A stretch of DNA of 64,000 nucleotides from Patescibacteria group bacterium (GTDB lineage: Bacteria > Patescibacteriota > Patescibacteriia > Patescibacteriales > UBA12465): the NCBI GenBank assembly GCA_049317985.1, contig JBMOHF010000004.1, positions 254-64,253 of the forward strand. The letters are read 5' to 3'. Every line of letters starts with the position of its first letter. The stretch's first letter is position 1. Made by a program: the position numbers and the translations under genes. This document shows positions 3,589 to 58,860 of this stretch, piece after piece. Below the pieces are notes generated by a model. That model made no database searches. It saw only the letters and a program-made list of their open reading frames with translations, and was not told where the DNA came from.

Positions 3589-4566
3589 CTATTTACTTTT
3601 TAATTTAGACATAATTTCTCGAACGCTTGTTCGGTCATTATTATCTATGGCATTGTTTAGCAACTCGGAGAGTTGTTTTTTGTCTAGCCCGGGGTATTTG
3701 CAGTAACTCTTCGCAATTGAATAATTGCCATCTTTCATGGCAGTCATAAATATTTCTTGTTTTAGTTCATCGATTTTTTCGGGAAAAGTTGTGCGAATCA
3801 AAGAATAAGCCTCGCTGTAGTTTTTCTCCAAAAGACGTTGTCTAAACAAATTTAAATTTATTTCTTGATTCCAGTTAACTCCGAGTGCAGTGCATACTTG
3901 ATCGATGATCTGGCTCTTTCCACCGTCTTTAACCAATTCCCATAGTTCTTTTAGGAGTTTATCTTTTAATTCTTGGTCATCAGTAATAACCATTGTGACT
4001 TCCAGAGCTTTATAATAGGATTTTTCTTTAATTTCTTTTCTGAAAAATTCTTCCCATTTTGACCCTGTAAATGGCGTAACTCCCAATTGGATGAATAGTG
4101 CTGGAACTTCCTGGTATCGAGCGGCATCTAATGGATGTTGGATGAGTTCGTTCTTTTCCGAGTCATTCAGTGGTCTTTTTAATAGTTTGGCTATTTCTGT
4201 TGCTTTGTTAACCATCCCATCCCTTATTGCCGGTTTGAGTAACTTCTCATAATACACCGGCTTTTCTGCTTCTGGAAATGCTTTAATCAGTGAAAATAAT
4301 TCGAAAACATTATTATTTTTAGAATTAAATCTTATTTCAAAAAGATTTTTTGCTTCTTCTACCGTCAATTTTCGGTTCAAAAGGTGTAATGTGGCGTCGA
4401 TTCTGCTAGTATGAGTAATCAAGGCCCCTCCTTTGATAAACTCTGCTAGCAAATATTCAAGGGCACCTATTCTTTCTGTTCCGGTTAACATATCTGCAAG
4501 AACAATACTGCTTTCTATTCCGTCACGTTCAAATTCCTGGCGAACTTTTTCTAGGCTATTTTTCAT
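3589..4566 (-). CDS. Hypothetical helical protein, tandem paralog A
   Basis: 325 aa. Shares its N-terminus (MKNSLEKVRQEFER) and C-terminus (ELLNNAID.NDR.SV) with the 4695..5678 product. Confidence 0.7.
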   Translation of the reverse strand: MKNSLEKVRQEFERDGIESSIVLADMLTGTERIGALEYLLAEFIKGGALITHTSRIDATLHLLNRKLTVEEAKNLFEIRFNSKNNNVFELFSLIKAFPEAEKPVYYEKLLKPAIRDGMVNKATEIAKLLKRPLNDSEKNELIQHPLDAARYQEVPALFIQLGVTPFTGSKWEEFFRKEIKEKSYYKALEVTMVITDDQELKDKLLKELWELVKDGGKSQIIDQVCTALGVNWNQEINLNLFRQRLLEKNYSEAYSLIRTTFPEKIDELKQEIFMTAMKDGNYSIAKSYCKYPGLDKKQLSELLNNAIDNNDRTSVREIMSKLKSK

Positions 4567-4694: not shown

Positions 4695-5678
4695 TTACTG
4701 AATGTCGTAAAAGGTTAACATAATAGAAACATCATCAACACTTTTCCTGTCATTTTTATCAATAGCATTGTTAAGTAGCTCAAACAGTTGTTCTTTAAGT
4801 AGTCTGGATTTGTCGGGGTTAAACATTTTTGCGGCATTATAATTACCATTCTCCATGGCTTTCGCAAATATTTCCTGTTTTAATTCGATATCCCTGCTCG
4901 GTAGATATTTATGGGCAAAGAGATGGGCACTAGTGTATTCGCCCGCAGAAAGAAACTGTCTGAATGTTTTTAGCTGAGCTTCCTCGGTCCAATTAAATCC
5001 AAGGTCGGTAGCGATTAATTCACTGATGCGCTGGTCCTCTTCGTCTTTGGTTAATTGCCAAAGTTCGGTTAGAAGTTGTGTTTTTGTTTCATTATTATCT
5101 ACTAATGTAGTAATGTCTCGGGCACAGTAATAGTTTTGGTCAGCCAACTCTTTTTTGAAAAACCTGCGCCATTTCTCTGTTTCGAATTTTTTTAATCCTA
5201 GGTCTGATAGTATTTTTGGAATTTTTGTATAATCTTTTTTGCTCAAAGATTTCTTAATAATTGTTCCTTTTTCCTGGTTAGTTAATGGCCTGCCAATAAG
5301 AGTAGCAATTTTTATTGACATAGCTACGTCAATCTCAAATGATAGAATTAATAGTTTCTCGCAATAAGAAAGGCGACAATTTTCAGGAAGTACATTGATT
5401 AAATCGAATAACTCATAGACGCTATTATTTTCTGAAGCGAATCTTATGTCAAATATTTTTTTTGCTTCATCTTTGGTTAGGGAGCGGTCTAATGAGTTTA
5501 ATAGAACGGGAATCTCATTGGAATAAAGAATGTTAAAACTTTTTTCTATTAATCCTACTAGCAGAAATTCCAAGGCATTTTGTTTTTCCTCTTCTTCTAA
5601 AATTTCAGCAAGAATAATACTGCTTTTTATTCCGCCACGTTCAAATTCCTGGCGAACTTTTTCTAGGCTATTTTTCAT
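4695..5678 (-). CDS. Hypothetical helical protein, tandem paralog B
   Basis: 327 aa, paralog of 3589..4566. Confidence 0.7.
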   Translation of the reverse strand: MKNSLEKVRQEFERGGIKSSIILAEILEEEEKQNALEFLLVGLIEKSFNILYSNEIPVLLNSLDRSLTKDEAKKIFDIRFASENNSVYELFDLINVLPENCRLSYCEKLLILSFEIDVAMSIKIATLIGRPLTNQEKGTIIKKSLSKKDYTKIPKILSDLGLKKFETEKWRRFFKKELADQNYYCARDITTLVDNNETKTQLLTELWQLTKDEEDQRISELIATDLGFNWTEEAQLKTFRQFLSAGEYTSAHLFAHKYLPSRDIELKQEIFAKAMENGNYNAAKMFNPDKSRLLKEQLFELLNNAIDKNDRKSVDDVSIMLTFYDIQ

Positions 5679-5819: not shown

Positions 5820-5996
5820 TTATTTTTCTTCCTTTTTCGAAGTTCTCAAGCAGCTAGTGCAGACTTTTAGTTTCATCTCGCCAATGTTTTTGGTCTGAAG
5901 ATTGATATTCTGTCTTTTGAGGGTTTTTACCTTGGAGTGGGAACGAGTAGCGCCTTTTGTGGAACCGCGTCCGCATAAATCACATTTCTTGGCCAT
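5820..5996 (-). CDS. rpmB: 50S ribosomal protein L28 (Cys-containing form)
   Basis: MAKKCDLCGRGSTKGATRSHSKVKT... Start moved to ATG at 5996. CxxC motifs at both ends. Confidence 0.85.
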   Translation of the reverse strand: MAKKCDLCGRGSTKGATRSHSKVKTLKRQNINLQTKNIGEMKLKVCTSCLRTSKKEEK

Positions 5997-6100: not shown

Positions 6101-6703
6101 ATGGAAATTTTATTTCAAATTATTATCTTAATCTTTTCGGCGATTTTACACGAATATTCCCATGGGGCAATGGCATATTCGCTTGGCGACCCAACCGCAA
6201 AGAACGCCGGGAGACTGACTCTCAACCCAATTGCTCATCTGGACTGGTTCGGGTCGGTTCTTTTGCCGGCAATAATGGTGATTAGCCAACTACCTTTTGT
6301 TTTTGGCTGGGCAAAACCAGTTCCATACAACCCATATTTACTCAGAGATCGTCGTTGGGGTGATGCTAAGGTTGCGATTGCTGGCCCAGCAGCTAATTTA
6401 GCAATTGCTATCGCTCTTGGTTTAGTTATTCGCCTTCTCCCGCTATCCGGGGCTTTTGTTAATTTTTTAGCAATTGCTGTTTTGGTCAATATTGTTTTAG
6501 CAGTATTTAATCTTGTGCCACTGCCACCGCTTGATGGTTCTAAGATCTTAGCTTCTTTTTTAAATGAAAAATGGCGAATTAAGTATTTAAGTTTAGAGCG
6601 TTTTGGTTTTGTATTGGTCATTATTTTTGTCATGTTTGGTATTGGGATCATTCAACCTTTAGTTTTTGGTCTATTTTCATTGATCACGGGAATGAGTTTT
6701 TAG
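6101..6703 (+). CDS. Site-2 protease family (M50) membrane metalloprotease
   Basis: HEYSHG (HExxH) in a TM helix and NLVPLPPLDGSK (NxxPxxxLDG). Confidence 0.8.
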   Translation: MEILFQIIILIFSAILHEYSHGAMAYSLGDPTAKNAGRLTLNPIAHLDWFGSVLLPAIMVISQLPFVFGWAKPVPYNPYLLRDRRWGDAKVAIAGPAANLAIAIALGLVIRLLPLSGAFVNFLAIAVLVNIVLAVFNLVPLPPLDGSKILASFLNEKWRIKYLSLERFGFVLVIIFVMFGIGIIQPLVFGLFSLITGMSF

Positions 6704-6785: not shown

Positions 6786-7880
6786 ATGCTAGAATATAAG
6801 TATTATATTAAAAAAATATCTCAACCATCTCCCGATTTGGTGGTTTTTGAAGTCGGCGACAAACGAGGTTTGCCAGTTTTTTCATTTCGTCCGGGGCAAT
6901 ATGCGATGATCTCCTATAAAAACTCTCGAGGTGAAATCGAAGACAAGCACGCCTTTTCGATGGCTAGTTCGCCGACTGAAAGAGATTTGATTCGTTTTGG
7001 TGTAAGGATTCAGGGTGGTTTCACTCAGGGTCTAACTAATCTGCGGGAGAACGACGAAATAATCGTTTCTGGTCCATACGGAAAATTTATTTATGATGAA
7101 AAAAAATATTCCGATATCGTTTTGATTGCCGGTGGTATTGGTATTACTCCATTTTTTAGTGCCTTAATTTATGCCACAGACAATAATTTGCCAAATAAAT
7201 TATCTTTGATTTATAGCGCAAGAACGGCTGGCGGAGCAACTTTTTATAACGAGATCAAGAATTTGGAAAAAAATAATTCAAATATTTCCACTTTGTTTTC
7301 ATTTACCGATGAGCCAGGGATTCCGATTAGTAATAACGTCATCCATCAGCGATTAGATGCCAATATTATTAATAATTTTTTAGGGAATATTCTTGGAAAA
7401 ACATTTTTTATTTGCGGACCCGCTCCTTTCATGACCGCAATGGTTACTAATTTAACTAGTCTTGGTGTCGCTAAAAATCAAATTCAGATGGAAGAATTTT
7501 CCATGCTAACCGACCAAAAATTTCGCTCACGGGTGAAAAATTTTTCTTATGCCCTGGGGTTTGCAGTAATAATGTTTGCTCTAGTCTTTAGTTTACTTGG
7601 AAGGCCAGCCGCCAGTATTTCTACGAGTAAAAATACTTATAACCAAACCTTACTGAATAAAATAAATAACGCGGCATCGAGTCGAGTATCAGCAATTCTT
7701 GGCGCCAAGAACAAGGCGATCACGAGTTCAAGCCAGCAGCAGGCAACGTCTGGGAATGCTCAGATTGCTCCTTCAGCCTCAACCGTGACAAATCAACCAT
7801 CAGTGAGTTCCACCCCATCACCGATTATTTACACCCCAGTTCCAGCCCCAGCGCCAACACCGACAACACGGGTTTCTTAA
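6786..7880 (+). CDS. FNR-like FAD/NAD(P)-binding oxidoreductase with C-terminal TM helix and S/T/P-rich tail
   Basis: RPGQYAMISY and HAFSMASSP (FAD site), GGIGITPF (NAD(P) site), FICGPAPFM. Then a hydrophobic helix and a Pro/Ser/Thr-rich end. Confidence 0.75.
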   Translation: MLEYKYYIKKISQPSPDLVVFEVGDKRGLPVFSFRPGQYAMISYKNSRGEIEDKHAFSMASSPTERDLIRFGVRIQGGFTQGLTNLRENDEIIVSGPYGKFIYDEKKYSDIVLIAGGIGITPFFSALIYATDNNLPNKLSLIYSARTAGGATFYNEIKNLEKNNSNISTLFSFTDEPGIPISNNVIHQRLDANIINNFLGNILGKTFFICGPAPFMTAMVTNLTSLGVAKNQIQMEEFSMLTDQKFRSRVKNFSYALGFAVIMFALVFSLLGRPAASISTSKNTYNQTLLNKINNAASSRVSAILGAKNKAITSSSQQQATSGNAQIAPSASTVTNQPSVSSTPSPIIYTPVPAPAPTPTTRVS

Positions 7881-7895
7881 TTTAAAAAAATTAAT

Positions 7896-8273
7896 ATGAA
7901 AAATATTTCCCCAGAGAAGCGAGCCATTACTATTTTTTTAATAATTTTTGTTTTTTCATTTATCGCGATTTCTTATGTTCGAGCTGAGAATGACAATGAG
8001 GATGAATACGAGAATGAGGGTCGTCGACCGGCAGTTCCGGTTTATCAAGTTCCAGCACCAGTTGTTTCGTTGACGCAAGTCGAGCCAGCAAAAGTTGTTA
8101 GTCCTTCAAGTAGTGGTGTTAAGACCATAACAAAAACATCACTGATTGATTCAGATCAAGACGGTATTTTGGACAAGTTTGATAAATTTCCCGGAGAGGA
8201 TGACTTCGCGTTTTATTTAAAAGATAGTAATACTAATGGTATCGCGGATGACCTGGAGGAATTATTTAAATAA
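7896..8273 (+). CDS. Small secreted/anchored protein with calcium-binding (thrombospondin type 3-like) Asp-rich motif
   Basis: N-terminal hydrophobic signal/anchor. DSDQDGILDKFDKFPGEDD motif. Confidence 0.5.
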   Translation: MKNISPEKRAITIFLIIFVFSFIAISYVRAENDNEDEYENEGRRPAVPVYQVPAPVVSLTQVEPAKVVSPSSSGVKTITKTSLIDSDQDGILDKFDKFPGEDDFAFYLKDSNTNGIADDLEELFK

Positions 8274-8277
8274 TTTT

Positions 8278-9216
8278 ATGATTTGGCGCGAATTCAAAGC
8301 AATGGGAACGGAAATAGTTATTTGTGCTGACCTTGAGCCAGAGAAAAATAATTTATTAATTGAAATGGAGAATGAAATAGTTGATTTCGAAAGTAGATTT
8401 AGTCGCTTCATTGAGGGGAATGAGTTATCAACGTTTAATAATTCTACGTTGGAAAAAAAAGAAATCAGCAAAACAATGCAGGCCTTACTACGAGAGAGTG
8501 AGCACTACTATGAAAGTACCAAAGGAGTCTTTGATCTAACAATTATCAGTAACCTCGAGGCTTTCGGATATGACAAAACTTTTGAAAAGGCAAGAGAAGA
8601 AAATTCAGAAGAAATAAACCTCGAGAAAGTGCAAGGGACGTTCAATAATCGCCCCAAGATGGACGATATAAAAATTTCTAATAATGAGATTACTTCGCCG
8701 CTTGGCTTAAAAATTGATTTTGGCGGTATTGGCAAGGGGTTTGTTATTGATTATTTAAGTCAACAAAATCTTTCTCACGTTGAAAATTATTGGATTTCAG
8801 CCGGTGGTGATATCATTGTCTCGGGAAATCAAAAACATGCTATTGGCTGGGATATTGGCGTGCAAAATCCAAATGAGCCAGACAAAAACGTTTTCTCAAT
8901 TAATACTCAAGGTGAAAAGATTGGTATCGCGACCTCGGGAATAATTAAAAGAGCGGGGAAGAAGGGCGATTTTGATTGGCATCATATTATTGATCCAAGA
9001 AGTGGCTTACCAGTGAAAAATAATATTTTATCCGTTACCGCAATTTCTTCAAGCGCTTTGCGTGCCGATATTTTCGCCAAGACGGTTTTGATTTTAGGTG
9101 AAAAAGCAGGTATCGAGTTTATTGAACAAGAATTAGATTCAGCATGTATAATTTTTTTGAAAGACAAAGAACCAATTTTTTCTCAGCGTGCCGGGTTATA
9201 TTTAAAAAATATATGA
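8278..9216 (+). CDS. apbE: ApbE-family FAD:protein FMN transferase
   Basis: AMGT near the N-terminus, DFGGIGKGF, IATSG, HHIIDPRSG. Start moved to ATG 8278. Confidence 0.8.
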   Translation: MIWREFKAMGTEIVICADLEPEKNNLLIEMENEIVDFESRFSRFIEGNELSTFNNSTLEKKEISKTMQALLRESEHYYESTKGVFDLTIISNLEAFGYDKTFEKAREENSEEINLEKVQGTFNNRPKMDDIKISNNEITSPLGLKIDFGGIGKGFVIDYLSQQNLSHVENYWISAGGDIIVSGNQKHAIGWDIGVQNPNEPDKNVFSINTQGEKIGIATSGIIKRAGKKGDFDWHHIIDPRSGLPVKNNILSVTAISSSALRADIFAKTVLILGEKAGIEFIEQELDSACIIFLKDKEPIFSQRAGLYLKNI

Positions 9217-10064
9217 ATAAAATAAATAATAAATTAAAATCACTTTCCGTTTTAGTACCAATGTTACTAGTTTTTGGACTAATTTATTTTGGCTTAAATC
9301 TAGGATCAAAATTTTTCACGGTTTCAGCGGCAACCTCCACAAGTTTTCAAAAGGATAGTGACTACGATGGTTTGTCTGATCAAGTAGAAATAAATGTCTA
9401 TCACACCAACCCCTTGAAAACCGATACCGATGGTGATAGTTATCTCGATTCAGCCGAAGTCTTGGCTGGAAGTAATCCCCTTGACGCGAAGGACCCAGCC
9501 AGTAAGTTAACTGCGAATTCCTTGGTTAAACCGGTAATAAGTAGTACTCCTTGGTATATTGCTAGGGCGTCTGGTTTGGTGGCCTATGTATTAATGTTCC
9601 TAGTCGTGATTCTGGGGATTGGGATGACTACCGCATATATCTATAAATATATTAACCCAGTTAAAGCTTGGGTGATTCACAAATATTTGTCTTTGGTGCT
9701 TGGTGTTGCCCTAATTACTCATCTCACCGGGCTGTTCTTTGATAAATTTATCAATTTTAACTTAAAAGATATACTGATTCCTTTCGTCTCTGATTTTAAA
9801 CCGATATTTCTGAATTTTGGCATTTTTGCTTTCTACGTTTTATTAATTATCATTTTTACCTCTCTCTGGTTTAGATTGAAATACAAAAGAGTTTGGCGGG
9901 GGGTACATTATTTTGTTTATCTCTTATTCATTTTTTCTTTAATCCACGGCTTCTTTATCGGTAGTGATTCCAACACGGTTTTAGCGGCTGCGGTCTATTT
10001 GGTTACCGGTTTAATATTTTTTGGCTTGATGGGGTATCGTCTAGTTACTTATTTCAAGAGATAG
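9213..10064 (+). CDS. Ferric-reductase-like (NOX/FRE/MsrQ-type) bis-heme transmembrane protein with N-terminal Asp-rich repeats
   Basis: His pairs HKYLSLVLGVALITH (13 between) and HYFVYLLFIFSLIH (12 between) in TM helices. DSDYDGLSD/DTDGDSYLD repeats. ATGA overlap with the apbE stop. Confidence 0.7.
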   Translation: MNKINNKLKSLSVLVPMLLVFGLIYFGLNLGSKFFTVSAATSTSFQKDSDYDGLSDQVEINVYHTNPLKTDTDGDSYLDSAEVLAGSNPLDAKDPASKLTANSLVKPVISSTPWYIARASGLVAYVLMFLVVILGIGMTTAYIYKYINPVKAWVIHKYLSLVLGVALITHLTGLFFDKFINFNLKDILIPFVSDFKPIFLNFGIFAFYVLLIIIFTSLWFRLKYKRVWRGVHYFVYLLFIFSLIHGFFIGSDSNTVLAAAVYLVTGLIFFGLMGYRLVTYFKR

Positions 10065-10084: not shown

Positions 10085-10113
10085 TTGACATATGTTAATT
10101 TATATTGTAAGTT
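10085..10113 (+). promoter_or_regulatory. Sigma70-type promoter (TTGACA-17-TAAGTT)
   Basis: The ORF-track TTG start at 10085 is the -35 hexamer itself. Confidence 0.6.
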
Positions 10114-10162
10114 AAAGCCTTCAAATATAGATGTGCTTATTAACAACCAAATACAATTAATC

Positions 10163-10654
10163 ATGGAACTAATTAGTGAAAAAGAACAAAATCAAAGAAT
10201 TTTAAAAATTGCTGCTCTTGACGGGAGCAAAACAATTTCGAAGTCTCCAAACATTTTTAGTGGACGGGTCGCTTTAAGCGTAAAAAATCATGGGCTTGTC
10301 CGAAGCATCATAACTGGTAGTACTATTTTGCGTGCTCACGCGTTACCTCTAGAAAAAAGTCTTTCGGCGGGCTTTATTGGCATAGATGCTAAAAAGAGTT
10401 TGGAAAAAAAATGGGTGACCCAAAATCAAATTGTTGAATTTTTCGAAAATCTGCCTTCCTGGGCAAGTGGTCGCGATATTCTATTAGGTTTTCTTTGTAA
10501 AAGAAAGGAAACTATGTTTGTGGATGAAAAATACCCAAGCGCCAATTATTTTATTATATATATTGACCCCGGGTCTCCCGGATTCCCGGTTTATGACTGC
10601 GAATTCACCTCAAGAGTCACTTGGAGCAAAATGCTGCTTATTATCCCTGATTAA
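10163..10654 (+). CDS. Hypothetical protein
   Basis: First ATG downstream of the predicted promoter (MELISEKEQ...). No recognisable motif. Confidence 0.5.
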   Translation: MELISEKEQNQRILKIAALDGSKTISKSPNIFSGRVALSVKNHGLVRSIITGSTILRAHALPLEKSLSAGFIGIDAKKSLEKKWVTQNQIVEFFENLPSWASGRDILLGFLCKRKETMFVDEKYPSANYFIIYIDPGSPGFPVYDCEFTSRVTWSKMLLIIPD

Positions 10655-51864: not shown

Positions 51865-53160
51865 CTATTTTACCAAAATTTTTGGAATATCAGGAGTTGT
51901 ATCGTTTATGATTTTCGTTATTTGATCGAACCCGTTGTAATTACTGTAGCTACTAAGGAATTCGGAAAGCTCTTTAAGTCTGGTAACTATCAGTTCTAGA
52001 TCTTTATCAACGAAATTCCTTTTATAAATAGTGTTGTAAAATTCCAATACATTCTTAAATGAATCGGGCCACACTATTTGTTTTTTAACCGTAGATGGTG
52101 TGAAATAGTTTTTTAGTTCGATTGAGGTTAATAATTGCACAGTAAATCTTTCATAAGCGCCTTCCTCTTTAATGGCTAAAATTAATTTAATATAATCTTC
52201 ACCATCGATCTCGATAGTGGAAATCATTTTCTCAATGAAAGCCCTTCTTTCTTCGACTTTTTTTACCGCCAGATCGTTTCTTTTTGTGTTTTCAGTTTCA
52301 CGTTCTGCCTTTTCTTTGATAGCTTTCTCTTCTTTTTCTTTTTTAACTTTTAAAGCTTCTGCTTTTCTATTTTGTATTCTGGTGTAACCGCGAATCAATA
52401 AATACATGCCAATTAATATAGTTAAAGTCAATAATATCAACCAAATTGATAGAGCAGGGGCTAATTCAAAAGTCCCAACCCGAACAATAAACTTCCATAT
52501 TATGGCAAAAAAATTACCGATACCATTCCAAAATTGAATCGCAGTGCTTGTTATTGCAGTTAGTAGTAATAATATCGGCATAATCACCGAAACGATATGC
52601 TCTTTATTATCAATATCGTTGAAACCCCCAAACAGAAGCCCAAAAATTATTGATAAAACAAAAGGAATCCAGATTAATTGGGTCCCGAAAACGAGATAGG
52701 TAAAAATAATTATTGAAAGACCAACAACTATTCCCAAATACAGTCTTAATTTCTCGTACGGCCCAAAGTTTCTGCTAAAAGAAAGAAGGATAATCAATAT
52801 TAACGTCACAGAAATACTAATTGAAATCCCTAGACTTCCGAACGGATTAAATAATGCTGAAAAATTTAGGTAAATTAAACGCAAGACGCCTAACGATATG
52901 GCAATTTTAATTAGATTGTAAATAATGTTTTTGGCTTTTAAAATCTTTCCATCAAAGGTGTAATTATCAAAAGATAAACTACTGTATTCACTCCAAGTAT
53001 AATATTTTTTCGATTTTAAACATATTATTCCGAGAATAATTAACGACGCGAAAAGCATCGTTAACCCAATTGCAAAGGTTTGATACAATGCATTAAACAA
53101 CACAGCAGAATATACTGCCGGCCAAAAAAGGCTTAAAATAATTCTTAATTTGTTTTCCAT
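51865..53160 (-). CDS. Polytopic membrane protein with K/E-rich linker and C-terminal soluble domain
   Basis: 431 aa. About 8 hydrophobic segments, then a charged coiled region. Confidence 0.55.
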   Translation of the reverse strand: MENKLRIILSLFWPAVYSAVLFNALYQTFAIGLTMLFASLIILGIICLKSKKYYTWSEYSSLSFDNYTFDGKILKAKNIIYNLIKIAISLGVLRLIYLNFSALFNPFGSLGISISISVTLILIILLSFSRNFGPYEKLRLYLGIVVGLSIIIFTYLVFGTQLIWIPFVLSIIFGLLFGGFNDIDNKEHIVSVIMPILLLLTAITSTAIQFWNGIGNFFAIIWKFIVRVGTFELAPALSIWLILLTLTILIGMYLLIRGYTRIQNRKAEALKVKKEKEEKAIKEKAERETENTKRNDLAVKKVEERRAFIEKMISTIEIDGEDYIKLILAIKEEGAYERFTVQLLTSIELKNYFTPSTVKKQIVWPDSFKNVLEFYNTIYKRNFVDKDLELIVTRLKELSEFLSSYSNYNGFDQITKIINDTTPDIPKILVK

Positions 53161-53266
53161 GTTTTATAAAATTTTTAATATACATTTTTGGATGCATTCC
53201 TGAGCTTTGACGGCCCATGACTACTTTCGTAGTTTTATCGTGCCACCCTTTTACACGAAGGCTTAT

Positions 53267-53295
53267 ACGTTATCATAAATAGTATATAATGTCAA
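53267..53295 (-). promoter_or_regulatory. Candidate promoter (TTGACA-17-TAACGT)
   Basis: Plus strand reads acgtta-N17-tgtcaa. Leaves a ~100-nt GC-richer leader. Confidence 0.45.
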
Positions 53296-53383
53296 GAGAT
53301 TGGGTTAAGAACGGATTTATGCTCTTTCTAAAAAAGTAAGCACCGGCAGTGCTTACTTTTTTGGCAATCGTAACTGGTAATTA

Positions 53384-54121
53384 CTATCGGATAGTTTCGG
53401 TTAAAGTTTCTCCATCTTCAATCTTTATCTCAATGGTTGGTGATTGGTTGTTGCTAGTCGAGATTTTTTCTCCTTGGAGAGGTAGGCAAGCTTTGAATTC
53501 ATCTTGTTGGACTTTCTGGATTCCTGCTTTTTCTTTGTTCATTGCTTCGTTATTTTCCTTAATTTCATTTTGAAATTTAATAACGCATGTTTTGTTGGCT
53601 TCGACTTGTTCCTTGGCATTAGTTTTATCAAGCGCTGTTTTTTGACAAACATTGCGACCATCAATAGAACTTAAGATTTTTTCATTGTGGGTAGTATTGC
53701 TGACCTTTAAGGCAGCATCTTTTTTATCAATAGCTGTTTTAATGCATTGCGCAATCTCGGGTTTGATAAAGGCTGGCTCTACTTTCTTTTCGACATTTTT
53801 TCTCATCCCCCAAAGTTCAGCTCCTTTTTTAATAATTTTATTAAATAGGGAAATTTCTGATGGGCTTGAAATTTTTTCCATCGGAGTTGTGCTGGTAGCT
53901 TCAATTTTTATATTTTCTGGTTTGTTTGTCTCTACTTTTTTTTGTTCGTTTACCTTTGGTGCTTTTCGAACGCCAAATAGAGAAGCCCCTTCTTTTTTAA
54001 TTCCCTGGAAAAATTTAATTTGATCCGGTGAAGAGATTTTTTCCCGCTCTTGCGCTGAGGTCACGTTAGCAAAAGCAAAAATTAAAGAAAAAATAGACAT
54101 ACTTAACAATATTTTTTTCAT
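53384..54121 (-). CDS. Secreted protein with two internal repeats
   Basis: Signal peptide MKKILLSMSIFSLIFAFANVTSA. Repeats EKISSP.+I.(F)F..I.K.GA.L.G.RK occur twice. Confidence 0.6.
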   Translation of the reverse strand: MKKILLSMSIFSLIFAFANVTSAQEREKISSPDQIKFFQGIKKEGASLFGVRKAPKVNEQKKVETNKPENIKIEATSTTPMEKISSPSEISLFNKIIKKGAELWGMRKNVEKKVEPAFIKPEIAQCIKTAIDKKDAALKVSNTTHNEKILSSIDGRNVCQKTALDKTNAKEQVEANKTCVIKFQNEIKENNEAMNKEKAGIQKVQQDEFKACLPLQGEKISTSNNQSPTIEIKIEDGETLTETIR

Positions 54122-54153
54122 AGTTTTTAGAAGTTAAATTAATAAGTTTCTAT

Positions 54154-54182
54154 ATTTTACCATTTTAGGTGGTTTTCGTAAA
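54154..54182 (-). promoter_or_regulatory. Candidate promoter (TTTACG-17-TAAAAT)
   Basis: Plus strand reads atttta-N17-cgtaaa. Confidence 0.4.
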
Positions 54183-54209
54183 TAATACAGAGAAATAATA
54201 TTCTTGTAT

Positions 54210-54235
54210 AAAAAAGCTACATGTTTCAAGTAGCT
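54210..54235 (-). terminator. Orphan minus-strand intrinsic terminator with no annotated upstream gene
   Basis: Minus strand AGCUAC-UUGAAACAU-GUAGCU followed by UUUUU. Confidence 0.5.
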
Positions 54236-54383
54236 TTCTTGCAACTAAAATTAATTTTGTTTGGTAAATAAAATTAAGCAATCTTCGTTTTACCCAAAAA
54301 TTGTTTCAGAAATGTTTTGATTGAATCGATAGTTATTGTCTGGGTTTCATTTTTGAAAACCAAGAATTGAGAAGTTATCAGGG

Positions 54384-54485
54384 ATGACAACCGGGGATTT
54401 TGCTATTTTAATAGTTTTATTGCTCATTATTCAGATTGTTAAGTGGTTTCTTTGCGGTGTTTATCAATATTTCAATGGTCGATAA
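54384..54485 (+). CDS. Possible 33-aa hydrophobic micro-ORF
   Basis: MTTGDFAILIVLLLIIQIVKWFLCGVYQYFNGR, below the ORF-track length cutoff. No clear promoter. Confidence 0.2.
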   Translation: MTTGDFAILIVLLLIIQIVKWFLCGVYQYFNGR

Positions 54486-54645
54486 TTCCAAAAATTTTAC
54501 TTTTAAATGACCATATTGTCTAGAAAATTGTAAAATGCCGATATTTAAAATCATCATTATTAATCATTTATTTAAATAATTCTCAATAATAATTATCATA
54601 TATTAGCCAAAAATATGCCTTTTTGTCATTTATCGTTAGTGCCTA

Positions 54646-54674
54646 TTGACTTTATTTTAATATCATGTTATTAT
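54646..54674 (+). promoter_or_regulatory. Sigma70 promoter (TTGACT-17-TATTAT)
   Basis: Hexamers just upstream of the 54693 ORF. Confidence 0.55.
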
Positions 54675-54692
54675 TAAAGACTAGTAAGATTA

Positions 54693-55199
54693 TTGTTGGA
54701 CCTTAAAAATTTAGAAACCATGACCCCGGAAAAAATAGCTATAGTATTGGTAAAAATTCGCTGGAGTGTGGCCAATAAGGTCATCCGGCAATACGCTTTT
54801 TTTATTAAAATGATGCCGCTCGCGGGACCATTAATGTTTATGTCGTTGGTAATGATTTACGAAAAGTCATTATTGGCAGCGACGTTATTTCTGGTTATTT
54901 CAATTTTTTTCCATTCTGCACCCAGGATTGTTATAATCGTAGCAAAATGGATAAGAATTCGTGCACAACGTGATATTAAATTTTCTATAAATTATAAAAA
55001 TTTTCAAGAAAATTTAAGACTCTCAGAGTCGCCCCAAGAAAGGGCGGAAATAAAAAAGAAAATGCGTGAAAATAGAGCAAAAGATACAGACTTAAGAAAT
55101 GGAAAGATAATTTACTTCATCTTAATTTTTCTGTGGTTCAGTGCTTGTTTCACAATAATAAACTACCTTTTGGAGTATCTCTTAAAAAATATGAAATAA
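54693..55199 (+). CDS. Membrane protein
   Basis: 168 aa with TM helices. The start could be ATG 54720. Confidence 0.5.
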   Translation: MLDLKNLETMTPEKIAIVLVKIRWSVANKVIRQYAFFIKMMPLAGPLMFMSLVMIYEKSLLAATLFLVISIFFHSAPRIVIIVAKWIRIRAQRDIKFSINYKNFQENLRLSESPQERAEIKKKMRENRAKDTDLRNGKIIYFILIFLWFSACFTIINYLLEYLLKNMK

Positions 55200-55218
55200 T
55201 TTCCAAAAAATTACTCAC

Positions 55219-55249
55219 AAAGAGGACAATTTAGTTTTGTCCTCTTTTT
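55219..55249 (+). terminator. Intrinsic terminator
   Basis: AAAGAGGACAatttagtttTGTCCTCTTTtt. Confidence 0.8.
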
Positions 55250-55267
55250 GCTACCTATAAAATATTA

Positions 55268-55296
55268 TTGACATTATTATCGATTAGTGTTAATAT
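55268..55296 (+). promoter_or_regulatory. Consensus promoter (TTGACA-17-TAATAT)
   Basis: The ORF-track TTG start at 55268 is the -35 hexamer. Confidence 0.65.
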
Positions 55297-55336
55297 TAGT
55301 TTATTGAAATGTTTGTTAACAATAAAATTATCAGAA

Positions 55337-56140
55337 ATGAAAAAAATAGGTGTCTGGTTTATGTTCTTATTCTGTACTAACTTGTCATTCGGACAAGAAA
55401 TAGACAGTAATCAAATTTTCCCGAAATTACCTCAATTGGCATTAATGATTGCCAATAATGGTTCCGGGATTAATGTCCGATATGTAAATAAGTTAATTTC
55501 GGTTGAGGTCTCAAGTTACCTGTTAGAAGAAAATGGCGAGCAGGTTAAAAATCGTGAATTTTCTTTTGGCTTAATCTATGTTAATGCTAAAGAGGACCAT
55601 GATAATCATGTTCATAATTTTCGGATTGGTTATGTGGACAGAAAAATGGTAAATGCTCTCTGGAGTTTTGATGAGCAACTGATCATTGCTCCCGTAACTG
55701 CTAGATTAAATGGACTTTTTCTGGCTTATCAATATAGATTTCTGGCTATGGCGGAAAAACCATATTCAATGTTTAGAGAAATAAATCTGAACCCGAGAAT
55801 TCTATATTTAAAGGAAGAAGGAAAAGCCAATGTTACTACGGTGAACTTTATAAGCAATTTTCTTTTATGTGGTGTTCGTCTAGGCGCTGGGGGAATGGAA
55901 ATTAACCCATCCGTTCATTTTGGTCTTGATAGCCGTGAAATAAACCGATTTCAAATGGGAATGTCTTACGGTATTGGTTTACACCTAAGGGGATATGATT
56001 ATCAAAAATATTATGCATCCGATATTATCTCTTTGGAGTATATCAGTGGAAACCAGGCAAGTCGCTCTGTTAGTTCTTATCGCTTGACGATCAATATTTT
56101 TGGGGTAATCGATTTTTTTAAGAGAAGGTCACTCAATTAA
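55337..56140 (+). CDS. Secreted beta-rich protein
   Basis: Start moved to ATG 55337. Signal-like MKKIGVWFMFLFCTNLSFGQE. Alternating-pattern sequence. Confidence 0.5.
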   Translation: MKKIGVWFMFLFCTNLSFGQEIDSNQIFPKLPQLALMIANNGSGINVRYVNKLISVEVSSYLLEENGEQVKNREFSFGLIYVNAKEDHDNHVHNFRIGYVDRKMVNALWSFDEQLIIAPVTARLNGLFLAYQYRFLAMAEKPYSMFREINLNPRILYLKEEGKANVTTVNFISNFLLCGVRLGAGGMEINPSVHFGLDSREINRFQMGMSYGIGLHLRGYDYQKYYASDIISLEYISGNQASRSVSSYRLTINIFGVIDFFKRRSLN

Positions 56141-56160
56141 TTAGTTAATTAGAAATTTTT

Positions 56161-56188
56161 AGCTCACTATATATAGTGAGCTTTTTTA
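56161..56188 (+). terminator. Intrinsic terminator
   Basis: AGCTCACTATATATAGTGAGCT palindrome followed by TTTTT. Confidence 0.8.
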
Positions 56189-56264
56189 ATATCTGAATAT
56201 AATACGAATATTTTTTATTTATTATTCTTGAATCTATAATATTTTCTTTAGTGTTTTTAGAAAT

Positions 56265-56294
56265 AAAAAAGGAGACGAATTCTTCGTCTCCTTT
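56265..56294 (-). terminator. Intrinsic terminator after the 56314 gene (bidirectional shape)
   Basis: aaaaaaGGAGACGAAttcTTCGTCTCCttt. Confidence 0.75.
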
Positions 56295-56313
56295 GAGGAA
56301 AATGATTTTTGAC

Positions 56314-56571
56314 TTAATTTTTGCTGCTACGTCGTGAGATCATATCGCTTGCTTTATTGTATTTAATAGTAAAAATAATAAAAATTACGATAAAAAATAC
56401 AAGTGGTCCAAAATAATACAAGTCCGAAAACTCAAATTTCGGTCCGCCGAAGAAAAAAAGATAAATATACGAAAGTAAAGCCGTTAATAAACCCGCACTC
56501 CCCGAAAAAATAGTGATTAAGAAAAGTGTTTTTTGTTTTCTTAATAATTTCTGATTATTTTCTTTATCCAT
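56314..56571 (-). CDS. Small two-TM membrane protein
   Basis: 85 aa with two hydrophobic helices. Confidence 0.5.
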   Translation of the reverse strand: MDKENNQKLLRKQKTLFLITIFSGSAGLLTALLSYIYLFFFGGPKFEFSDLYYFGPLVFFIVIFIIFTIKYNKASDMISRRSSKN

Positions 56572-56610
56572 GTTTTGGTGTTTTTAATGATTCTAAGATT
56601 AACTGAGATA

Positions 56611-57105
56611 TTACTTGATACTCTTCAATTTTTTGAGCAATCTTCTTTGAGCGAGAAGAATTTCAATATAAAATTTCTCAGGCAAAGAAGTATTAGGATT
56701 TTCAACGCCAACGTCATGATAAATAAAGGCGCCATGAGTCATCGATAAGGCTTTTTGAACTTTAATATTTTGCCTGATTTTCTCGGAAATAAACATAGCG
56801 ATCAGTAATCGATGTTCAATGGAATTGTATTCAATCATTTTATTGTTCCAGAAAACATAATGTGTAGAGCCGGGAATAATGGATTTGGTAACTTTTCGTC
56901 CCGCTTTTAAGGCGTCAAGACCATTCATTTTAAAAACTTCCTCTCTTTCTTTTTGATCGAAAAATTTGATACCCTGCAAGGCACTTTCTACTGATTTGAA
57001 AGAATAATCTCCGATCGTAAAGGGTATGTTGGCAAGATTTGAAAGAATCGCTCCTCGCCAATCTTCGGAATCAGATCTGATATTAATAATTTCATTTTTT
57101 GGCAT
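56611..57105 (-). CDS. Possible NADAR (DUF1768/YbiA-like) family protein
   Basis: WRGAILSNLANIPFTIGDYSFKSVESALQGIKF resembles the NADAR LSNF...F.S.E...Q..KF core. By eye only. Confidence 0.4.
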   Translation of the reverse strand: MPKNEIINIRSDSEDWRGAILSNLANIPFTIGDYSFKSVESALQGIKFFDQKEREEVFKMNGLDALKAGRKVTKSIIPGSTHYVFWNNKMIEYNSIEHRLLIAMFISEKIRQNIKVQKALSMTHGAFIYHDVGVENPNTSLPEKFYIEILLAQRRLLKKLKSIK

Positions 57106-57141
57106 GATTATTACATTTTTAATTTACAATATTAACAAAAT

Positions 57142-57171
57142 AATTTACCATTATTTACCCAAGTTCGTCAA
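57142..57171 (-). promoter_or_regulatory. Candidate promoter (TTGACG-18-TAAATT)
   Basis: Plus strand reads aattta-N18-cgtcaa. Confidence 0.4.
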
Positions 57172-57227
57172 TAGCGACATCCTGATAGCGGGTAAGCTGC
57201 ATGGTCATGACGAACATTGAAAAATCT

Positions 57228-58157: not shown

Positions 58158-58242
58158 TTTTGACTCGTCTGAGACTAAGTGTCCGCTGTAAAATCAGAGA
58201 ACAGATTAGAGAAGATTCTTAGGCAAACTGATTTTTTAAAAT

Positions 58243-58274
58243 AAAAAAGGAAGCTTGTGAGGCTTCCATTTTTT
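58243..58274 (-). terminator. Intrinsic terminator after cassette 58282
   Basis: aaaaaaGGAAGCttgtgagGCTTCCatttttt. Confidence 0.7.
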
Positions 58275-58281
58275 CGATTTT

Positions 58282-58842: not shown

Positions 58843-58860
58843 TATCTCGCTTTTGCGCGC

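What the first reader, a model, noticed from the sequence alone, without database searches (positions are those of the whole stretch)
6786..10064. Split NOX/FRE-like transmembrane electron-transfer module plus ApbE flavin transferase in a reduced genome
Four adjacent co-directional genes make up the cluster.
- An FNR-type FAD/NAD(P)H module, tethered by one TM helix with an S/T/P-rich tail.
- A small exported Asp-rich (TSP3-like) protein.
- ApbE.
- A 6-TM protein with two His pairs spaced 13 and 12 residues apart, the classic bis-heme spacing of the ferric reductase/NADPH oxidase family. It carries exported TSP3-like repeats.

In NOX/FRE enzymes the heme and FNR domains are fused, but here they are separate genes bracketing ApbE. 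This would give an organism that otherwise looks fermentative a route to move electrons from NAD(P)H to an extracytoplasmic acceptor. I could not find an obvious FMN-acceptor (Dxx[ST]GA[ST]) motif in the neighbouring proteins, so the ApbE substrate is unknown.
Basis: partly seen in the sequence, partly recalled or inferred. Interest (0 to 1): 0.6.

Follow-up and report, generated by a model that had tools for sequence, protein, structure and literature searches.

The report
Split NOX-like membrane reductase with ApbE
A tightly packed four-gene operon in a Patescibacteria genome encodes an NADPH-oxidase-like haem/flavin electron conduit across the membrane, split over two proteins. It also encodes a flavin-attaching enzyme whose likeliest target is a conserved Thr-x-x-Ser tag at the tip of a floppy extracellular tail, which would give these minimal bacteria an outlet for electrons.

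Summary
Window 6786-10064 holds four co-directional genes separated by 15 nt, 4 nt and an ATGA overlap:
- an FNR-type reductase with a TM helix and a disordered tail;
- a small exported acidic Ca-loop protein;
- ApbE;
- a ferric-reductase-domain protein with TSP3 repeats and four invariant His inside two helices.

The cassette recurs in at least 15 other Patescibacteria loci. Relatives exist as single-chain fusions in both domain orders, so the split-NOX reading holds.

- The haem protein contributes helices 2-6. Helix 1 most likely comes from the FNR/tail anchor, so this looks like a circularly permuted NOX cut after TM1.
- ApbE has an intact catalytic triad but no signal peptide; the same is true of its 120 closest homologues.
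- No FMN_bind domain is present. The only element lost together with ApbE is the tail.
- The tail's last residues (PTPTTRVS) are invariant at Thr361 and Ser364. In sister clades they read TGVS, TSAS or C..SGVT..C, which are near-canonical ApbE motifs.

I propose the tail tip as the FMN acceptor. This is inferred and untested.

It is a new variant of the "MsrQ-like" flavinylation-associated systems and of two-component NOX-like systems. Interest is moderate to high.

The parts
6786..7880 (+). Gene 1: FNR-type FAD/NAD(P)H reductase fused to a TM helix and an extracellular tail (364 aa).
   Evidence: ORF. Pfam NAD_binding_1 and FAD_binding_6. AF2 mean pLDDT 85.8. 809 homologues, most of them with tails.
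6786..7505 (+). FNR core, residues 1-240; cytosolic.
   Evidence: AF2 pLDDT >93 with a beta-barrel plus Rossmann layout. Foldseek hits to flavohaemoglobin, b5 reductase, NqrF and the SpNOX dehydrogenase domain, E 1e-17 to 1e-20.
6948..6962 (+). FAD motif HAFSM (residues 55-59), which fits the NOX filter H[PSA]F[TS][LIMV].
   Evidence: Regex test. 77 of 119 homologues keep it.
7134..7151 (+). [quoted passage not shown]
   Evidence: 119 of 119 homologues keep it.
7515..7598 (+). TM helix (residues 244-271); proposed helix 1 of the six-helix ferric-reductase bundle.
   Evidence: AF2 helix, pLDDT about 93. In fusion P0064 this helix is followed directly by helices 2-6. In L007, L101 and L102 the haem protein has only five helices.
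7644..7751 (+). Extracellular helix (residues 287-322), conserved KN.Y....N.AA..R...I...KNKA.
7752..7853 (+). Disordered S/T/P/Q-rich linker (residues 323-356).
   Evidence: pLDDT <50 for residues 324-345. Length and sequence vary between homologues.
7854..7877 (+). C-terminal end motif PTPTTRVS (residues 357-364). Thr361 and Ser364 are the proposed ApbE recognition and FMN-acceptor residues.
   Evidence: T361 and S364 are invariant, and P357 and P359 nearly invariant, in 44 sequences down to 32% identity. They are the only invariant columns across fused and free-standing tails. Sister classes read TGVS, TSAS or C..SGVT..C.
7896..8273 (+). Gene 2: small exported acidic protein (125 aa). It has a signal peptide (residues 1-30, ...VRA|E), an acidic stretch, a P/V/T linker and a C-terminal double Ca-loop domain (residues 83-125, 8142-8270).
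   Evidence: It is present exactly when the haem protein carries TSP3 repeats.
8278..9216 (+). Gene 3: ApbE FAD:protein FMN transferase (312 aa) without a signal peptide.
   Evidence: PF02424 at 4.4e-52. Aligns to FmnB (7esa) and V. cholerae ApbE (6nxi) at 6e-24, with Ser (ATSG), His (WHHIIDP) and Asp (RAD) conserved. Start confirmed by orthologues. 0 of 120 homologues have an N-terminal hydrophobic segment.
9213..10064 (+). Gene 4: ferric-reductase-domain dihaem protein (283 aa).
   Evidence: PF01794 and PF18884. AF2 pLDDT 85.6. Foldseek top hits are NOX5, DUOX, SpNOX and STEAP transmembrane domains.
9213..9314 (+). N-terminal signal peptide or signal anchor (residues 1-34; possible cleavage at VSA|A).
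   Evidence: Sequence. In relatives it is a short classical leader ending ASA|Q. Cleavage was not tested.
9348..9497 (+). Two exported TSP3-type Ca-binding repeats (residues 46-95).
   Evidence: TSP3_bac 2.6e-11. Aligns to TSP3 repeats of a solved biofilm surface protein, 7c7u.
9546..10058 (+). Five TM helices (residues 112-140, 149-175, 198-223, 225-248, 256-282), corresponding to NOX helices 2-6.
   Evidence: The His-bearing helices are the 2nd and 4th of the five, matching NOX TM3 and TM5 (PMC5676040).
9678..9722 (+). His156 (9678-9680) and His170 (9720-9722): bis-His H-x13-H.
9906..9947 (+). His232 (9906-9908) and His245 (9945-9947): bis-His H-x12-H, followed by the conserved outer-loop motif G-[ST]-D-[ST].

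Best explanation
The operon encodes a NOX/FRE-type transmembrane electron conduit assembled from two polypeptides.

Shown by homology:
- A cytosolic FNR module that binds FAD and NAD(P)H.
- A membrane protein with two bis-His haem sites on helices equivalent to NOX TM3 and TM5.

Inferred path: NAD(P)H -> FAD -> inner haem (H156/H232) -> outer haem (H170/H245) -> outside.

Inferred from natural fusions and minimal variants: the TM helix behind the FNR core serves as helix 1 of the six-helix bundle. The enzyme is therefore a circularly permuted NOX (DH-TM1 | TM2-6) cut after TM1.

Inferred, and my preferred reading: the ApbE encoded between them transfers FMN from FAD onto the conserved Thr-x-x-Ser tip (T361/S364) of the disordered tail that emerges from helix 1. 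This would create a tethered extracellular flavin that accepts electrons from the outer haem and passes them to an external acceptor, which could be Fe(III), O2 or another oxidant. Because ApbE has no export signal, the modification would have to occur in the cytosol before the tail is translocated.

The small acidic protein and the TSP3 repeats always occur together. They probably form a Ca2+- or cation-binding exterior accessory.

My separate estimates are about 0.85 for the conduit itself and about 0.45 for the tail tip as FMN acceptor.
For: Domains, motifs and fold.

Operon structure: gaps of 15 nt and 4 nt and an ATGA overlap.

Conserved cassette with varying flanks in at least 15 loci.

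Natural fusions:
- P0069, P0441, P0415 and P0442 are SP-TSP3-5TM-FNR.
- P0064 is FNR-TM-5TM.

Helix-1 argument: the minimal pairs L007, L101 and L102 have a five-helix haem protein plus an FNR that ends right after its TM helix.

ApbE: catalytic Ser/His/Asp conserved.

Tail as acceptor:
- T361 and S364 are invariant in 44 sequences within an otherwise unconserved tail, and across free-standing tail genes.
- Sister classes end in TGVS-RAR, TSAS-PVR or C-TTQ-SGVT-T-C, and long tails carry 2-5 PAPVTSASAP units about 30-39 residues apart.
- Tail and ApbE are both present in 23 distinct loci and both absent in 3, with 1 discordant locus.
- ApbE is retained where FNR is absent (L020, L021, L103).

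Precedents:
- 7-residue tags at protein termini are flavinylated. G->A and A->V changes keep about 50% activity, and Asp->Ala has only a minor effect (PMC12052999).
- FMN_red proteins are flavinylated on an unstructured C-terminal extension (PMC11334425).
- Orphan apbE genomes imply that some substrates remain unidentified (PMC8238504).

Iron hint: tail-less pairs sit next to ArsP_2 and VIT1 genes.
Against: - No biochemical data exist for any member of this family.
- The window's own tip, T-R-V-S, has Arg where every proven ApbE substrate has Gly.
- The strict [ST]GA[ST] motif is not enriched in the tails: 7 observed against 3.8 expected.
- ApbE lacks any signal peptide here and in all 120 closest homologues. 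Yet by the positive-inside rule, the fusion topologies and the Cys pair of class-2 tips, the tail is extracytoplasmic. I know of no precedent for Sec export of a pre-flavinylated peptide.
- L006 has tail, small protein and haem protein but no adjacent ApbE.
- The three tail-less, ApbE-less loci are close relatives, so the co-loss may represent only one or two evolutionary events.
- P0064, the permuted fusion, is a single cluster on a 2.2-kb contig and could be a merged gene call.
- Patescibacteria are generally thought to lack haem and flavin synthesis (my own knowledge), so the cofactors would have to be scavenged.
- The FNR core is not specifically NOX-like.
Confidence: 0.6

Rival explanations
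1. The conduit is as described, but ApbE attaches FMN on the cytosolic face, either to a loop of the haem protein or to the FNR protein. This would give a covalent version of the cytosolic FMN/FAD site of MsrQ and STEAP. The tail would then have another role, such as a wall-spanning spacer, an adhesion element or an O-glycosylated mucin-like stalk.
For: - ApbE is cytosolic by sequence.
- Cytosolic ApbEs with cytosolic targets are known (PMC12052999).
- E. coli MsrQ carries FMN on the cytosolic side, mediating transfer from an NADH oxidoreductase to haem (PMC12525009).
- Ser217 at the cytosolic end of a helix is invariant, and the cytosolic loop G-M-T-T is conserved.
- The ApbE-haem gene adjacency with ATGA overlap is the most conserved pair.
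Against: - All four His are kept, so the inner position is occupied by haem, unlike in MsrQ and STEAP.
- The cytosolic Ser and Thr residues are equally conserved in haem proteins that have no ApbE, such as P0062.
- No [ST]-x-x-[ST] motif resembling the ApbE motif is seen there.
- This reading does not explain why the tail tip is invariant and is lost together with ApbE.
Confidence: 0.2
2. This is an ordinary 'MsrQ-like' flavinylation system whose real ApbE substrate is an FMN_bind, DUF2271 or DUF3570 protein encoded elsewhere in the genome. The cluster merely lacks it.
For: PF01794 plus ApbE clusters typically include an FMN_bind gene (PMC8238504). Only 64 kb of this genome could be inspected.
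Against: - No FMN_bind gene appears in about 30 cassettes examined with 4-6 kb flanks.
- No canonical motif occurs in any plausible exported protein of the window.
- ApbE lacks the export signal needed to reach such substrates.
- CPR genomes were reported as depleted in extracytosolic flavinylation components.
Confidence: 0.1
3. The ApbE homologue is not a protein flavin transferase here. It acts as an FAD-binding or FAD-pyrophosphatase (Ftp-like) flavin-trafficking protein that loads or supplies flavin to the FNR/haem complex.
For: Some ApbE/Ftp proteins hydrolyse FAD instead of transferring FMN (PMC4767422 abstract). There is no canonical acceptor motif in the cluster.
Against: The transferase catalytic Ser/His/Asp triad is intact. 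This reading also leaves the invariant tail tip and its co-loss with ApbE unexplained.
Confidence: 0.07
4. The four genes are neighbours without a shared function.
For: None beyond the absence of experiments.
Against: The gene order is conserved with variable flanks, the genes show translational coupling, and gene fusions exist in both domain orders.
Confidence: 0.02

Closest known systems
Bacterial and eukaryotic NOX/FRE enzymes (SpNOX, CsNOX5, NOX2, DUOX, yeast FRE)
   Same: - Bis-His H-x13-H and H-x12-H on the helices equivalent to TM3 and TM5.
- HAFSM and GIGITP motifs, and an FNR-type dehydrogenase module.
- The best fold matches of the haem protein.
- Relatives exist as single chains in NOX order, ending at the C-terminal aromatic residue.
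   Different: - In the window the dehydrogenase is a separate protein placed before a TM helix, i.e. permuted and split.
- There are exported TSP3 repeats, an ApbE gene, and a long tail.
- The acceptor (O2 or Fe3+) is unknown.
E. coli MsrQ plus Fre, the 'two-component NOX-like system' (PMC5676040 discussion; PMC12525009)
   Same: The ferric-reductase-domain membrane protein and a separate cytosolic FNR-family flavin reductase are encoded as two proteins.
   Different: - MsrQ has one haem plus non-covalent FMN and feeds the Mo enzyme MsrP.
- Fre is soluble and unlinked.
- Here there are two His pairs, no MsrP, a membrane-anchored FNR encoded in the same operon, and ApbE.
'MsrQ-like' flavinylation-associated gene clusters (Meheust et al. 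2021, PMC8238504)
   Same: A PF01794 protein sits next to apbE with an NAD-binding module. The proposed flow is from NAD(P)H to an extracytosolic flavin, with a VIT1 association in some members.
   Different: - Those clusters are mainly actinobacterial, with the NAD-binding domain fused C-terminally, a secreted or lipidated ApbE, and an FMN_bind protein.
- The study's filter required a signal peptide on ApbE or the substrate, so this CPR cassette would have been excluded.
- Here there is no FMN_bind, ApbE has no signal peptide, and the candidate acceptor is a peptide tip.
Flavinylated C-terminal extensions of FMN_red proteins (PMC11334425) and the synthetic 'flavin-tag' (PMC12052999)
   Same: An ApbE target lies in an unstructured terminal segment rather than in a dedicated fold. 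Terminal position favours modification.
   Different: Those carry canonical [ST]GA[ST] motifs, and the flavin folds back into a flavin-binding domain. Here the motif is T-x-x-S (TRVS) at the end of a 60-350 residue tail, with no obvious docking domain.
Listeria extracellular electron transfer (Ndh2, EetAB, FmnB, PplA)
   Same: In a monoderm, an ApbE-type enzyme equips a surface-tethered carrier with FMN so that NADH-derived electrons can leave the cell.
   Different: The Listeria route uses a quinone and EetAB, FmnB is an exported lipoprotein, FAD is exported by an ECF transporter, and PplA has folded FMN_bind domains.

Membership tests
NOX/FRE family (filters of Hajjar et al. 2017, PMC5676040) | FAD motif H[PSA]F[TS][LIMV] | tested here: met
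   HAFSM at residue 55 of the FNR protein. 77 of 119 homologues keep it.
NOX/FRE family (filters of Hajjar et al. 2017, PMC5676040) | [quoted passage not shown] | tested here: met
   GIGITP at residue 117. 119 of 119 homologues keep it.
NOX/FRE family (filters of Hajjar et al. 2017, PMC5676040) | Two His-x12/14-His motifs at least 20 residues apart, in TM helices | tested here: met
   H156/H170 and H232/H245 are invariant in 41 sequences, lie inside AF2 helices, and both motifs are found in 79 of 80 homologues.
NOX/FRE family (filters of Hajjar et al. 2017, PMC5676040) | Six TM helices with the His pairs on the 3rd and 5th | tested here: inconclusive
   The precursor has 1+5 predicted helices. 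If the leader is cleaved, helix 1 must come from the FNR anchor, as suggested by P0064 and the five-helix minimal forms. No complex model could be built.
NOX/FRE family (filters of Hajjar et al. 2017, PMC5676040) | FRD and C-terminal dehydrogenase region on one polypeptide | tested here: not met
   They are separate genes in the window. The feature is met in relatives P0069, P0415, P0441 and P0442.
NOX/FRE family (filters of Hajjar et al. 2017, PMC5676040) | NAD(P)H-dependent reduction of O2 or Fe(III) | not testable with these tools
   Needs an enzyme assay.
'MsrQ-like' flavinylation system (Meheust 2021, PMC8238504) | PF01794 gene within five genes of apbE | tested here: met
   The genes are adjacent and overlap.
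'MsrQ-like' flavinylation system (Meheust 2021, PMC8238504) | Signal peptide or lipobox on ApbE or on an FMN_bind/DUF2271/DUF3570 protein of the cluster | tested here: not met
   ApbE starts 7-10 residues before the first conserved motif in 0 of 120 cases with a hydrophobic leader. No such substrate domain is present.
'MsrQ-like' flavinylation system (Meheust 2021, PMC8238504) | FMN_bind-domain gene in the cluster (typical, not obligatory) | tested here: not met
   No Pfam hit in the window genes. No FMN_bind family was listed for any called gene in the loci fetched.
ApbE FAD:protein FMN transferase | PF02424 domain above the gathering score | tested here: met
   177.7 bits against a cut-off of 25.6.
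ApbE FAD:protein FMN transferase | Catalytic Ser241/His257/Asp285 (V. cholerae numbering) | tested here: met
   ATSG, WHHIIDP and RAD align to the 6nxi residues. The H257G mutant 6nxj pinpoints the His.
ApbE FAD:protein FMN transferase | N-terminal lipoprotein or secretion signal (typical of the family) | tested here: not met
ApbE FAD:protein FMN transferase | Substrate with D-x-x-[ST]-G-A-[ST] nearby | tested here: not met
   No such motif in the four proteins. The closest candidate is the tail tip TRVS, and near-canonical TGVS, SGVT and TSAS occur at the same position in relatives.
ApbE FAD:protein FMN transferase | FMN transfer to Thr or Ser demonstrated | not testable with these tools
   Needs co-expression and mass spectrometry.
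MsrPQ methionine sulfoxide reductase system | Periplasmic molybdoenzyme MsrP partner encoded alongside | tested here: not met
   No molybdopterin oxidoreductase family was listed among neighbours in any locus.
MsrPQ methionine sulfoxide reductase system | One haem plus non-covalent FMN (PMC12525009) | tested here: not met
   Two conserved His pairs imply two haems. Cofactor content itself was not testable.
Bacterial TSP3 repeat proteins (PF18884) | TSP3_bac repeats above threshold | tested here: met
   The haem protein scores 43.6 bits against a cut-off of 25, with two repeats. The small protein has no Pfam hit and only a weak hhalign match: E 1e-3, probability 22%.

The most novel reading that the evidence does not exclude
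A signal-peptide-less ApbE clade in Patescibacteria flavinylates, in the cytosol, a bare Thr-x-x-Ser tag at the C-terminal tip of a disordered tail. In some relatives several PAPVTSASAP units along the tail would be modified. The tail is rooted in helix 1 of a split, circularly permuted NOX. It would then be exported, producing a tethered extracellular FMN 'fishing line' or multi-flavin wire that carries NAD(P)H-derived electrons beyond the cell wall. That would amount to a new class of ApbE substrate with no folded domain and no Gly-Ala core. It would also be a new way to achieve extracytosolic flavinylation without exporting FAD or ApbE.
Probability: 0.27. Interest if true: 0.85.

Novelty: new variant of a known kind. 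Interest (0 to 1): 0.66.

Why it matters
Patescibacteria (CPR) are regarded as fermentative, host-dependent cells without electron-transport chains. A large survey found extracytosolic flavinylation 'strikingly underrepresented' in them (PMC8238504). This cassette is widespread in Falkowbacteria, Parcubacteria, Saccharibacteria and relatives. If it works as proposed, these cells have a compact route to dispose of NAD(P)H electrons outside the cell or to reduce iron for uptake.

It would also:
- offer a testable candidate for one of the remaining 'orphan' ApbE substrates;
- show that the NOX architecture tolerates circular permutation and splitting after TM1;
- raise the question of how a cytosolic ApbE serves an exported acceptor.

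A short natural terminal acceptor tag that differs from the canonical motif could also be useful for orthogonal flavin-tagging.

Tried and rejected
- A genome-collection scan with the single haem protein found nothing, and the 41-sequence alignment was too diverse to seed a scan. A 16-sequence alignment worked, but most of its 80 loci were TSP3-only matches, leaving 14 true relatives. The metagenome scan yielded only 10 loci.
- The all-representatives HMM search was swamped by giant TSP3-repeat proteins because I left the TSP3 region in the profile. It was useful only for three extra NOX-order fusions.
- I tried to model the natural fusion P0064 as a stand-in for a multimer. MAFFT misaligned the FNR group onto the haem region, both with full-length ids and with trimmed sequences, so I abandoned this. 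No complex model exists.
- I rejected P0088 (ApbE plus Ferric_reduct, 467 aa) as Rosetta-stone evidence. Its Arg-rich linker looks like a frameshift or merged gene call.
- Promoter and terminator scans were at or below chance.
- The canonical [ST]GA[ST] search in the window gave only a hit in a large ORF at 43474 and two in unlikely frames. The strict motif is not enriched in tails.
- I considered the SMAS/SIAS stretch of the FNR FAD motif as an ApbE site and rejected it, because it is the ordinary FNR RxYS-type motif.
- I considered the haem protein's outer G-[ST]-D-[ST] loop and its cytosolic Ser217 and GMTT. Neither distinguishes ApbE-linked from ApbE-free members.
- Sequence and fold searches could not place the FNR core closer to NOX dehydrogenase domains than to flavohaemoglobin, NqrF or b5 reductase.

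Full report
OBSERVATION

Window 6786-10064 carries four co-directional ORFs.

Gene 1 (6786-7880, 364 aa) hits NAD_binding_1 (1.6e-8) and FAD_binding_6 (1.5e-6). It also gives sub-threshold hits to the ferric-reductase-type FAD_binding_8 and NAD_binding_6 families. An AlphaFold2 model built from 44 homologues has mean pLDDT 85.8. It shows:
- an FNR core at residues 1-238 (pLDDT >93);
- a TM helix at 244-271;
- a further helix at 287-322;
- a disordered stretch at 324-345 (pLDDT <50);
- a slight rise in confidence over the last 14 residues.

Gene 2 (7896-8273, 125 aa) has no Pfam or NCBIfam hit. Its layout is conserved across 17 orthologues: a signal-like N-terminus ending A|EDD, an acidic stretch, a P/V/T linker, and a C-terminal DSDxDGIxDxxDKYPGEDDFAY..DxNxNGIADDLE domain.

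Gene 3 is ApbE (PF02424, 4.4e-52). Its real start is ATG 8278. This start lies 4 nt after the gene 2 stop, and orthologues begin at the equivalent Met.

Gene 4 starts at 9213, overlapping the ApbE stop as ATGA. It hits Ferric_reduct (1.6e-8) and TSP3_bac (2.6e-11).
- Its four His residues (156, 170, 232, 245; spacings 13 and 12) are invariant in 41 homologues.
- They lie inside helices 149-175 and 225-248 of a pLDDT 85.6 model.
- The best structural neighbours of that model are the transmembrane domains of NOX5, DUOX1, SpNOX and STEAP. The E-values are modest (0.06-1), the probability is about 1.0, and the ranking is consistent.

The organism is a Patescibacteria MAG.

IS IT A UNIT?

Yes. The order FNR-tail / small protein / ApbE / haem protein recurs in at least 15 distinct Patescibacteria loci whose flanking genes differ.

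Relatives are fused in both domain orders.
- P0069, P0441, P0415 and P0442 are SP-TSP3-5TM-FNR. They end at the aromatic residue that closes FNR and NOX dehydrogenase domains.
- P0064 is FNR-TM-5TM. Its residues 1-288 match the window FNR at 55% identity, and residues 297-461 match the window haem protein at 61%.

Taken together, the two window proteins pass the three sequence filters that Hajjar et al. used to define bacterial NOX (PMC5676040): HAFSM, GIGITP and two bis-His motifs. By sequence and fold, however, the FNR core is generic FNR superfamily. Flavohaemoglobin, NqrF and b5 reductase score as well as the SpNOX dehydrogenase domain.

1. Where the enzyme is split.
- The His-bearing helices are the 2nd and 4th of the five helices that follow the exported TSP3 region, so these five correspond to NOX TM2-TM6.
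- In the minimal two-gene variants (L007, L101, L102) the haem protein begins directly at helix 2 (184-220 aa), and the FNR protein ends right after its TM helix (272-274 aa).
- In the NOX-order fusions the N-terminus is a short classical leader, and a separate TM-plus-tail gene lies upstream (L019).
- The simplest reading is that the TM helix behind the FNR core, or at the head of a free-standing tail gene, is helix 1 of the bundle. The window enzyme is then a circularly permuted NOX cut after TM1. This is inference, because I could not build a complex model.

2. A fifth module.
- The tail consists of a TM anchor, a helix, a low-complexity linker and a conserved tip. It is fused to FNR in the window.
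- It is a separate 125-148 aa gene in L019, L020, L006, L021 and L103.

3. Accessory pair.
- The small protein is present exactly when the haem protein has TSP3 repeats: 23 loci have both, 9 have neither, and none is discordant.
- Its C-terminal domain aligns weakly to the TSP3 pair (hhalign E 1e-3, probability 22%).

4. ApbE is cytosolic by sequence.
- The catalytic Ser/His/Asp align to V. cholerae ApbE and Listeria FmnB.
- None of the 120 closest homologues (34-100% identity, 297-340 aa) has a hydrophobic N-terminal segment. The first conserved motif starts at residue 7-10. The same holds in all cassette types.

WHAT DOES ApbE MODIFY?

No FMN_bind, DUF2271 or DUF3570 domain occurs in the cassette, and no canonical D-x-x-[ST]-G-A-[ST] motif either.

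The tail tip stands out.
- In 44 FNR-tail proteins down to 32% identity, Thr361 and Ser364 are invariant and Pro357 and Pro359 nearly so. This sits in a tail with no other conservation.
- They are also the only invariant columns when fused and free-standing tails are aligned.

Among 119 homologues the ends fall into classes:

| End class | Count |
|---|---|
| T-x-V-S end (TRVS, TTVS, TAVS, TKVS) | 54 |
| T-[GS]-[VAS]-S-x-x-R (TGVSRAR, TSASPVR) | 10 |
| C-TT[TS]Q-SG[VA]T-TC | 23 |
| Long tails with acidic ends and 2-5 PAPVTSASAP units at 30-39 residue spacing | 22 |
| Other | 6 |
| No tail | 4 |

The spacing of the two hydroxyl residues (i, i+3) matches the canonical [ST]-G-A-[ST] motif. TGVS, SGVT and TSAS are each one conservative step from it.

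The ApbE literature reports the following:
- G->A and A->V substitutions retain about half of flavinylation, and the upstream Asp is dispensable.
- 7-residue tags work best at protein termini (PMC12052999).
- Natural FMN_red proteins are flavinylated on an unstructured C-terminal extension (PMC11334425).
- About 4% of apbE genomes still lack a known substrate (PMC8238504).

Co-occurrence supports the link.
- Tail and ApbE are both present in 23 distinct loci, including three with no FNR gene nearby.
- Both are absent in the three tail-less FNR-haem pairs.
- Only L006 has a tail without an adjacent ApbE.
- A naive Fisher test that I worked out by hand from these counts gives p of about 0.001, but the tail-less loci are related, so the number of independent events is small.

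Caveats:
- The window's own tip, TRVS, carries Arg at the Gly position.
- Strict [ST]GA[ST] is not enriched in tails: 7 observed against 3.8 expected.
- The enrichment figures for the looser motifs reflect shared ancestry as much as selection.

THE TOPOLOGY PARADOX

Four lines of evidence place the tail outside the cell:
- the positive-inside rule applied to the free-standing tail genes;
- both fusion topologies;
- the Ca-binding TSP3 context;
- the Cys pair flanking class-2 tips.

ApbE, by contrast, has no export signal. Three resolutions are possible:
- the tip is flavinylated in the cytosol before the C-terminal tail is translocated, which is my preferred resolution because truncated ApbE and its substrates do react in the E. 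coli cytosol;
- the real target is cytosolic, the rival supported by MsrQ's cytosolic-side FMN (PMC12525009);
- ApbE reaches the outside by an unknown route.

I cannot decide between these with the available tools.

FUNCTION

The inferred path is NAD(P)H -> FAD -> inner haem (H156/H232) -> outer haem (H170/H245) -> tethered FMN, or directly to an acceptor. The acceptor is unknown.

There are hints towards iron:
- the family name;
- the acidic and Ca-loop accessories;
- tail-less pairs followed by an ArsP_2 permease (3e-21) and a VIT1-family protein (2e-6, just at Pfam's cut-off), echoing the VIT1 association reported for MsrQ-like clusters.

O2 reduction (NOX-like), or use as a general electron sink for NAD+ regeneration, are equally open.

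COMPARISON AND NOVELTY

The idea of a two-protein NOX (MsrQ plus Fre) and of PF01794-ApbE 'MsrQ-like' clusters is published, so the finding is not categorically new. It differs from the described systems in five ways:
- the permuted and split architecture, with the FNR membrane-anchored and encoded in the same operon;
- two haem sites and no MsrP;
- no FMN_bind protein;
- a whole clade of signal-peptide-less ApbE;
- a conserved terminal T-x-x-S tag on a disordered tail, plus the TSP3 and small-protein accessory.

The published survey required a signal peptide on ApbE or its substrate and reported CPR as depleted, so this cassette fell outside it. Full-text searches found no paper linking Patescibacteria with ferric reductase. 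The only papers pairing 'candidate phyla radiation' with ApbE were that survey and one unrelated study.

VERDICT

It is a new variant of a known kind, with interest about 0.66. The tail-tip acceptor hypothesis (about 0.45) and the flavinylate-then-export scenario (about 0.27) are the parts that would make it notable, and both are directly testable by co-expression and mass spectrometry.

Noticed in passing
window 3589-4566 (-) and 4695-5678 (-): Two tandem paralogous genes of about 325 aa with near-identical N-termini (MKNSLEKVRQEFER...). There is no convincing family assignment, only a sub-threshold ELYS hit for one of them.
   Followed up: partly
window about 52000-60000: GC content drops to 0.30-0.33, against 0.37-0.40 in the rest of the window. 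This may be a foreign or island-like segment.
   Followed up: no
window 10085-10654 (+): A 189-aa ORF with a TTG start lies directly downstream of the cassette, before rpsL. It has no Pfam or NCBIfam hit and is not found beside the cassette in other loci.
   Followed up: partly
window 5820-5990 (-) and 6101-6703 (+): A ribosomal protein L28 gene and a small M50-family intramembrane metalloprotease lie just upstream. Neither is conserved next to the cassette elsewhere.
   Followed up: partly
L101 2651-4065; L102 2880-3797: The tail-less, ApbE-less FNR-haem pairs are followed by an ArsP_2 permease (3e-21) and, in L101, a VIT1-family protein (28.2 bits against a cut-off of 28.1). Both are preceded by a Gmad2/Germane protein. 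This hints at iron or metal handling.
   Followed up: partly
L001 8623-12834; L005 1-2548 and 6893-11875; L006 289-5061; L007 11706-12555: MacB/FtsX-type ABC transporters with YknX-like adaptors, and P2-type cation ATPases, recur within 6 kb of the cassette in several genomes.
   Followed up: no
L021 3947-4606: In an Anaerolineaceae MAG, a PepSY-domain membrane protein (2.9e-12) precedes tail-ApbE-haem. This joins two transmembrane cytochrome themes that are both associated with flavinylation in the literature.
   Followed up: partly
L090 11187-11783 (-): A VKOR-family gene lies near a class-2 cassette whose tail tip is flanked by two Cys. This is consistent with extracytoplasmic disulfide formation.
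   Followed up: no
P0088 / L004 6001-7404: An apparent ApbE-Ferric_reduct fusion from a high-GC contig has an Arg-rich nonsense-like linker. It is probably a frameshift or merged gene call, but it still shows ApbE-haem adjacency outside CPR.
   Followed up: partly
L015 2743-4427: One cassette has an FNR tail that ends aberrantly (...DAADENVVG), followed by a 520-nt gap before the small-protein gene. This may be a frameshifted or decaying tail.
   Followed up: no
P0157, P0161, P0164, P0183 (FNR homologues 506-552 aa): Long tails carry 3-8 TSAS-type units at a period of about 30-39 residues and end in poly-Asp/Glu. No small-protein gene is present in the one such locus examined (L089). The acidic end may substitute for the small acidic protein.
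   Followed up: partly
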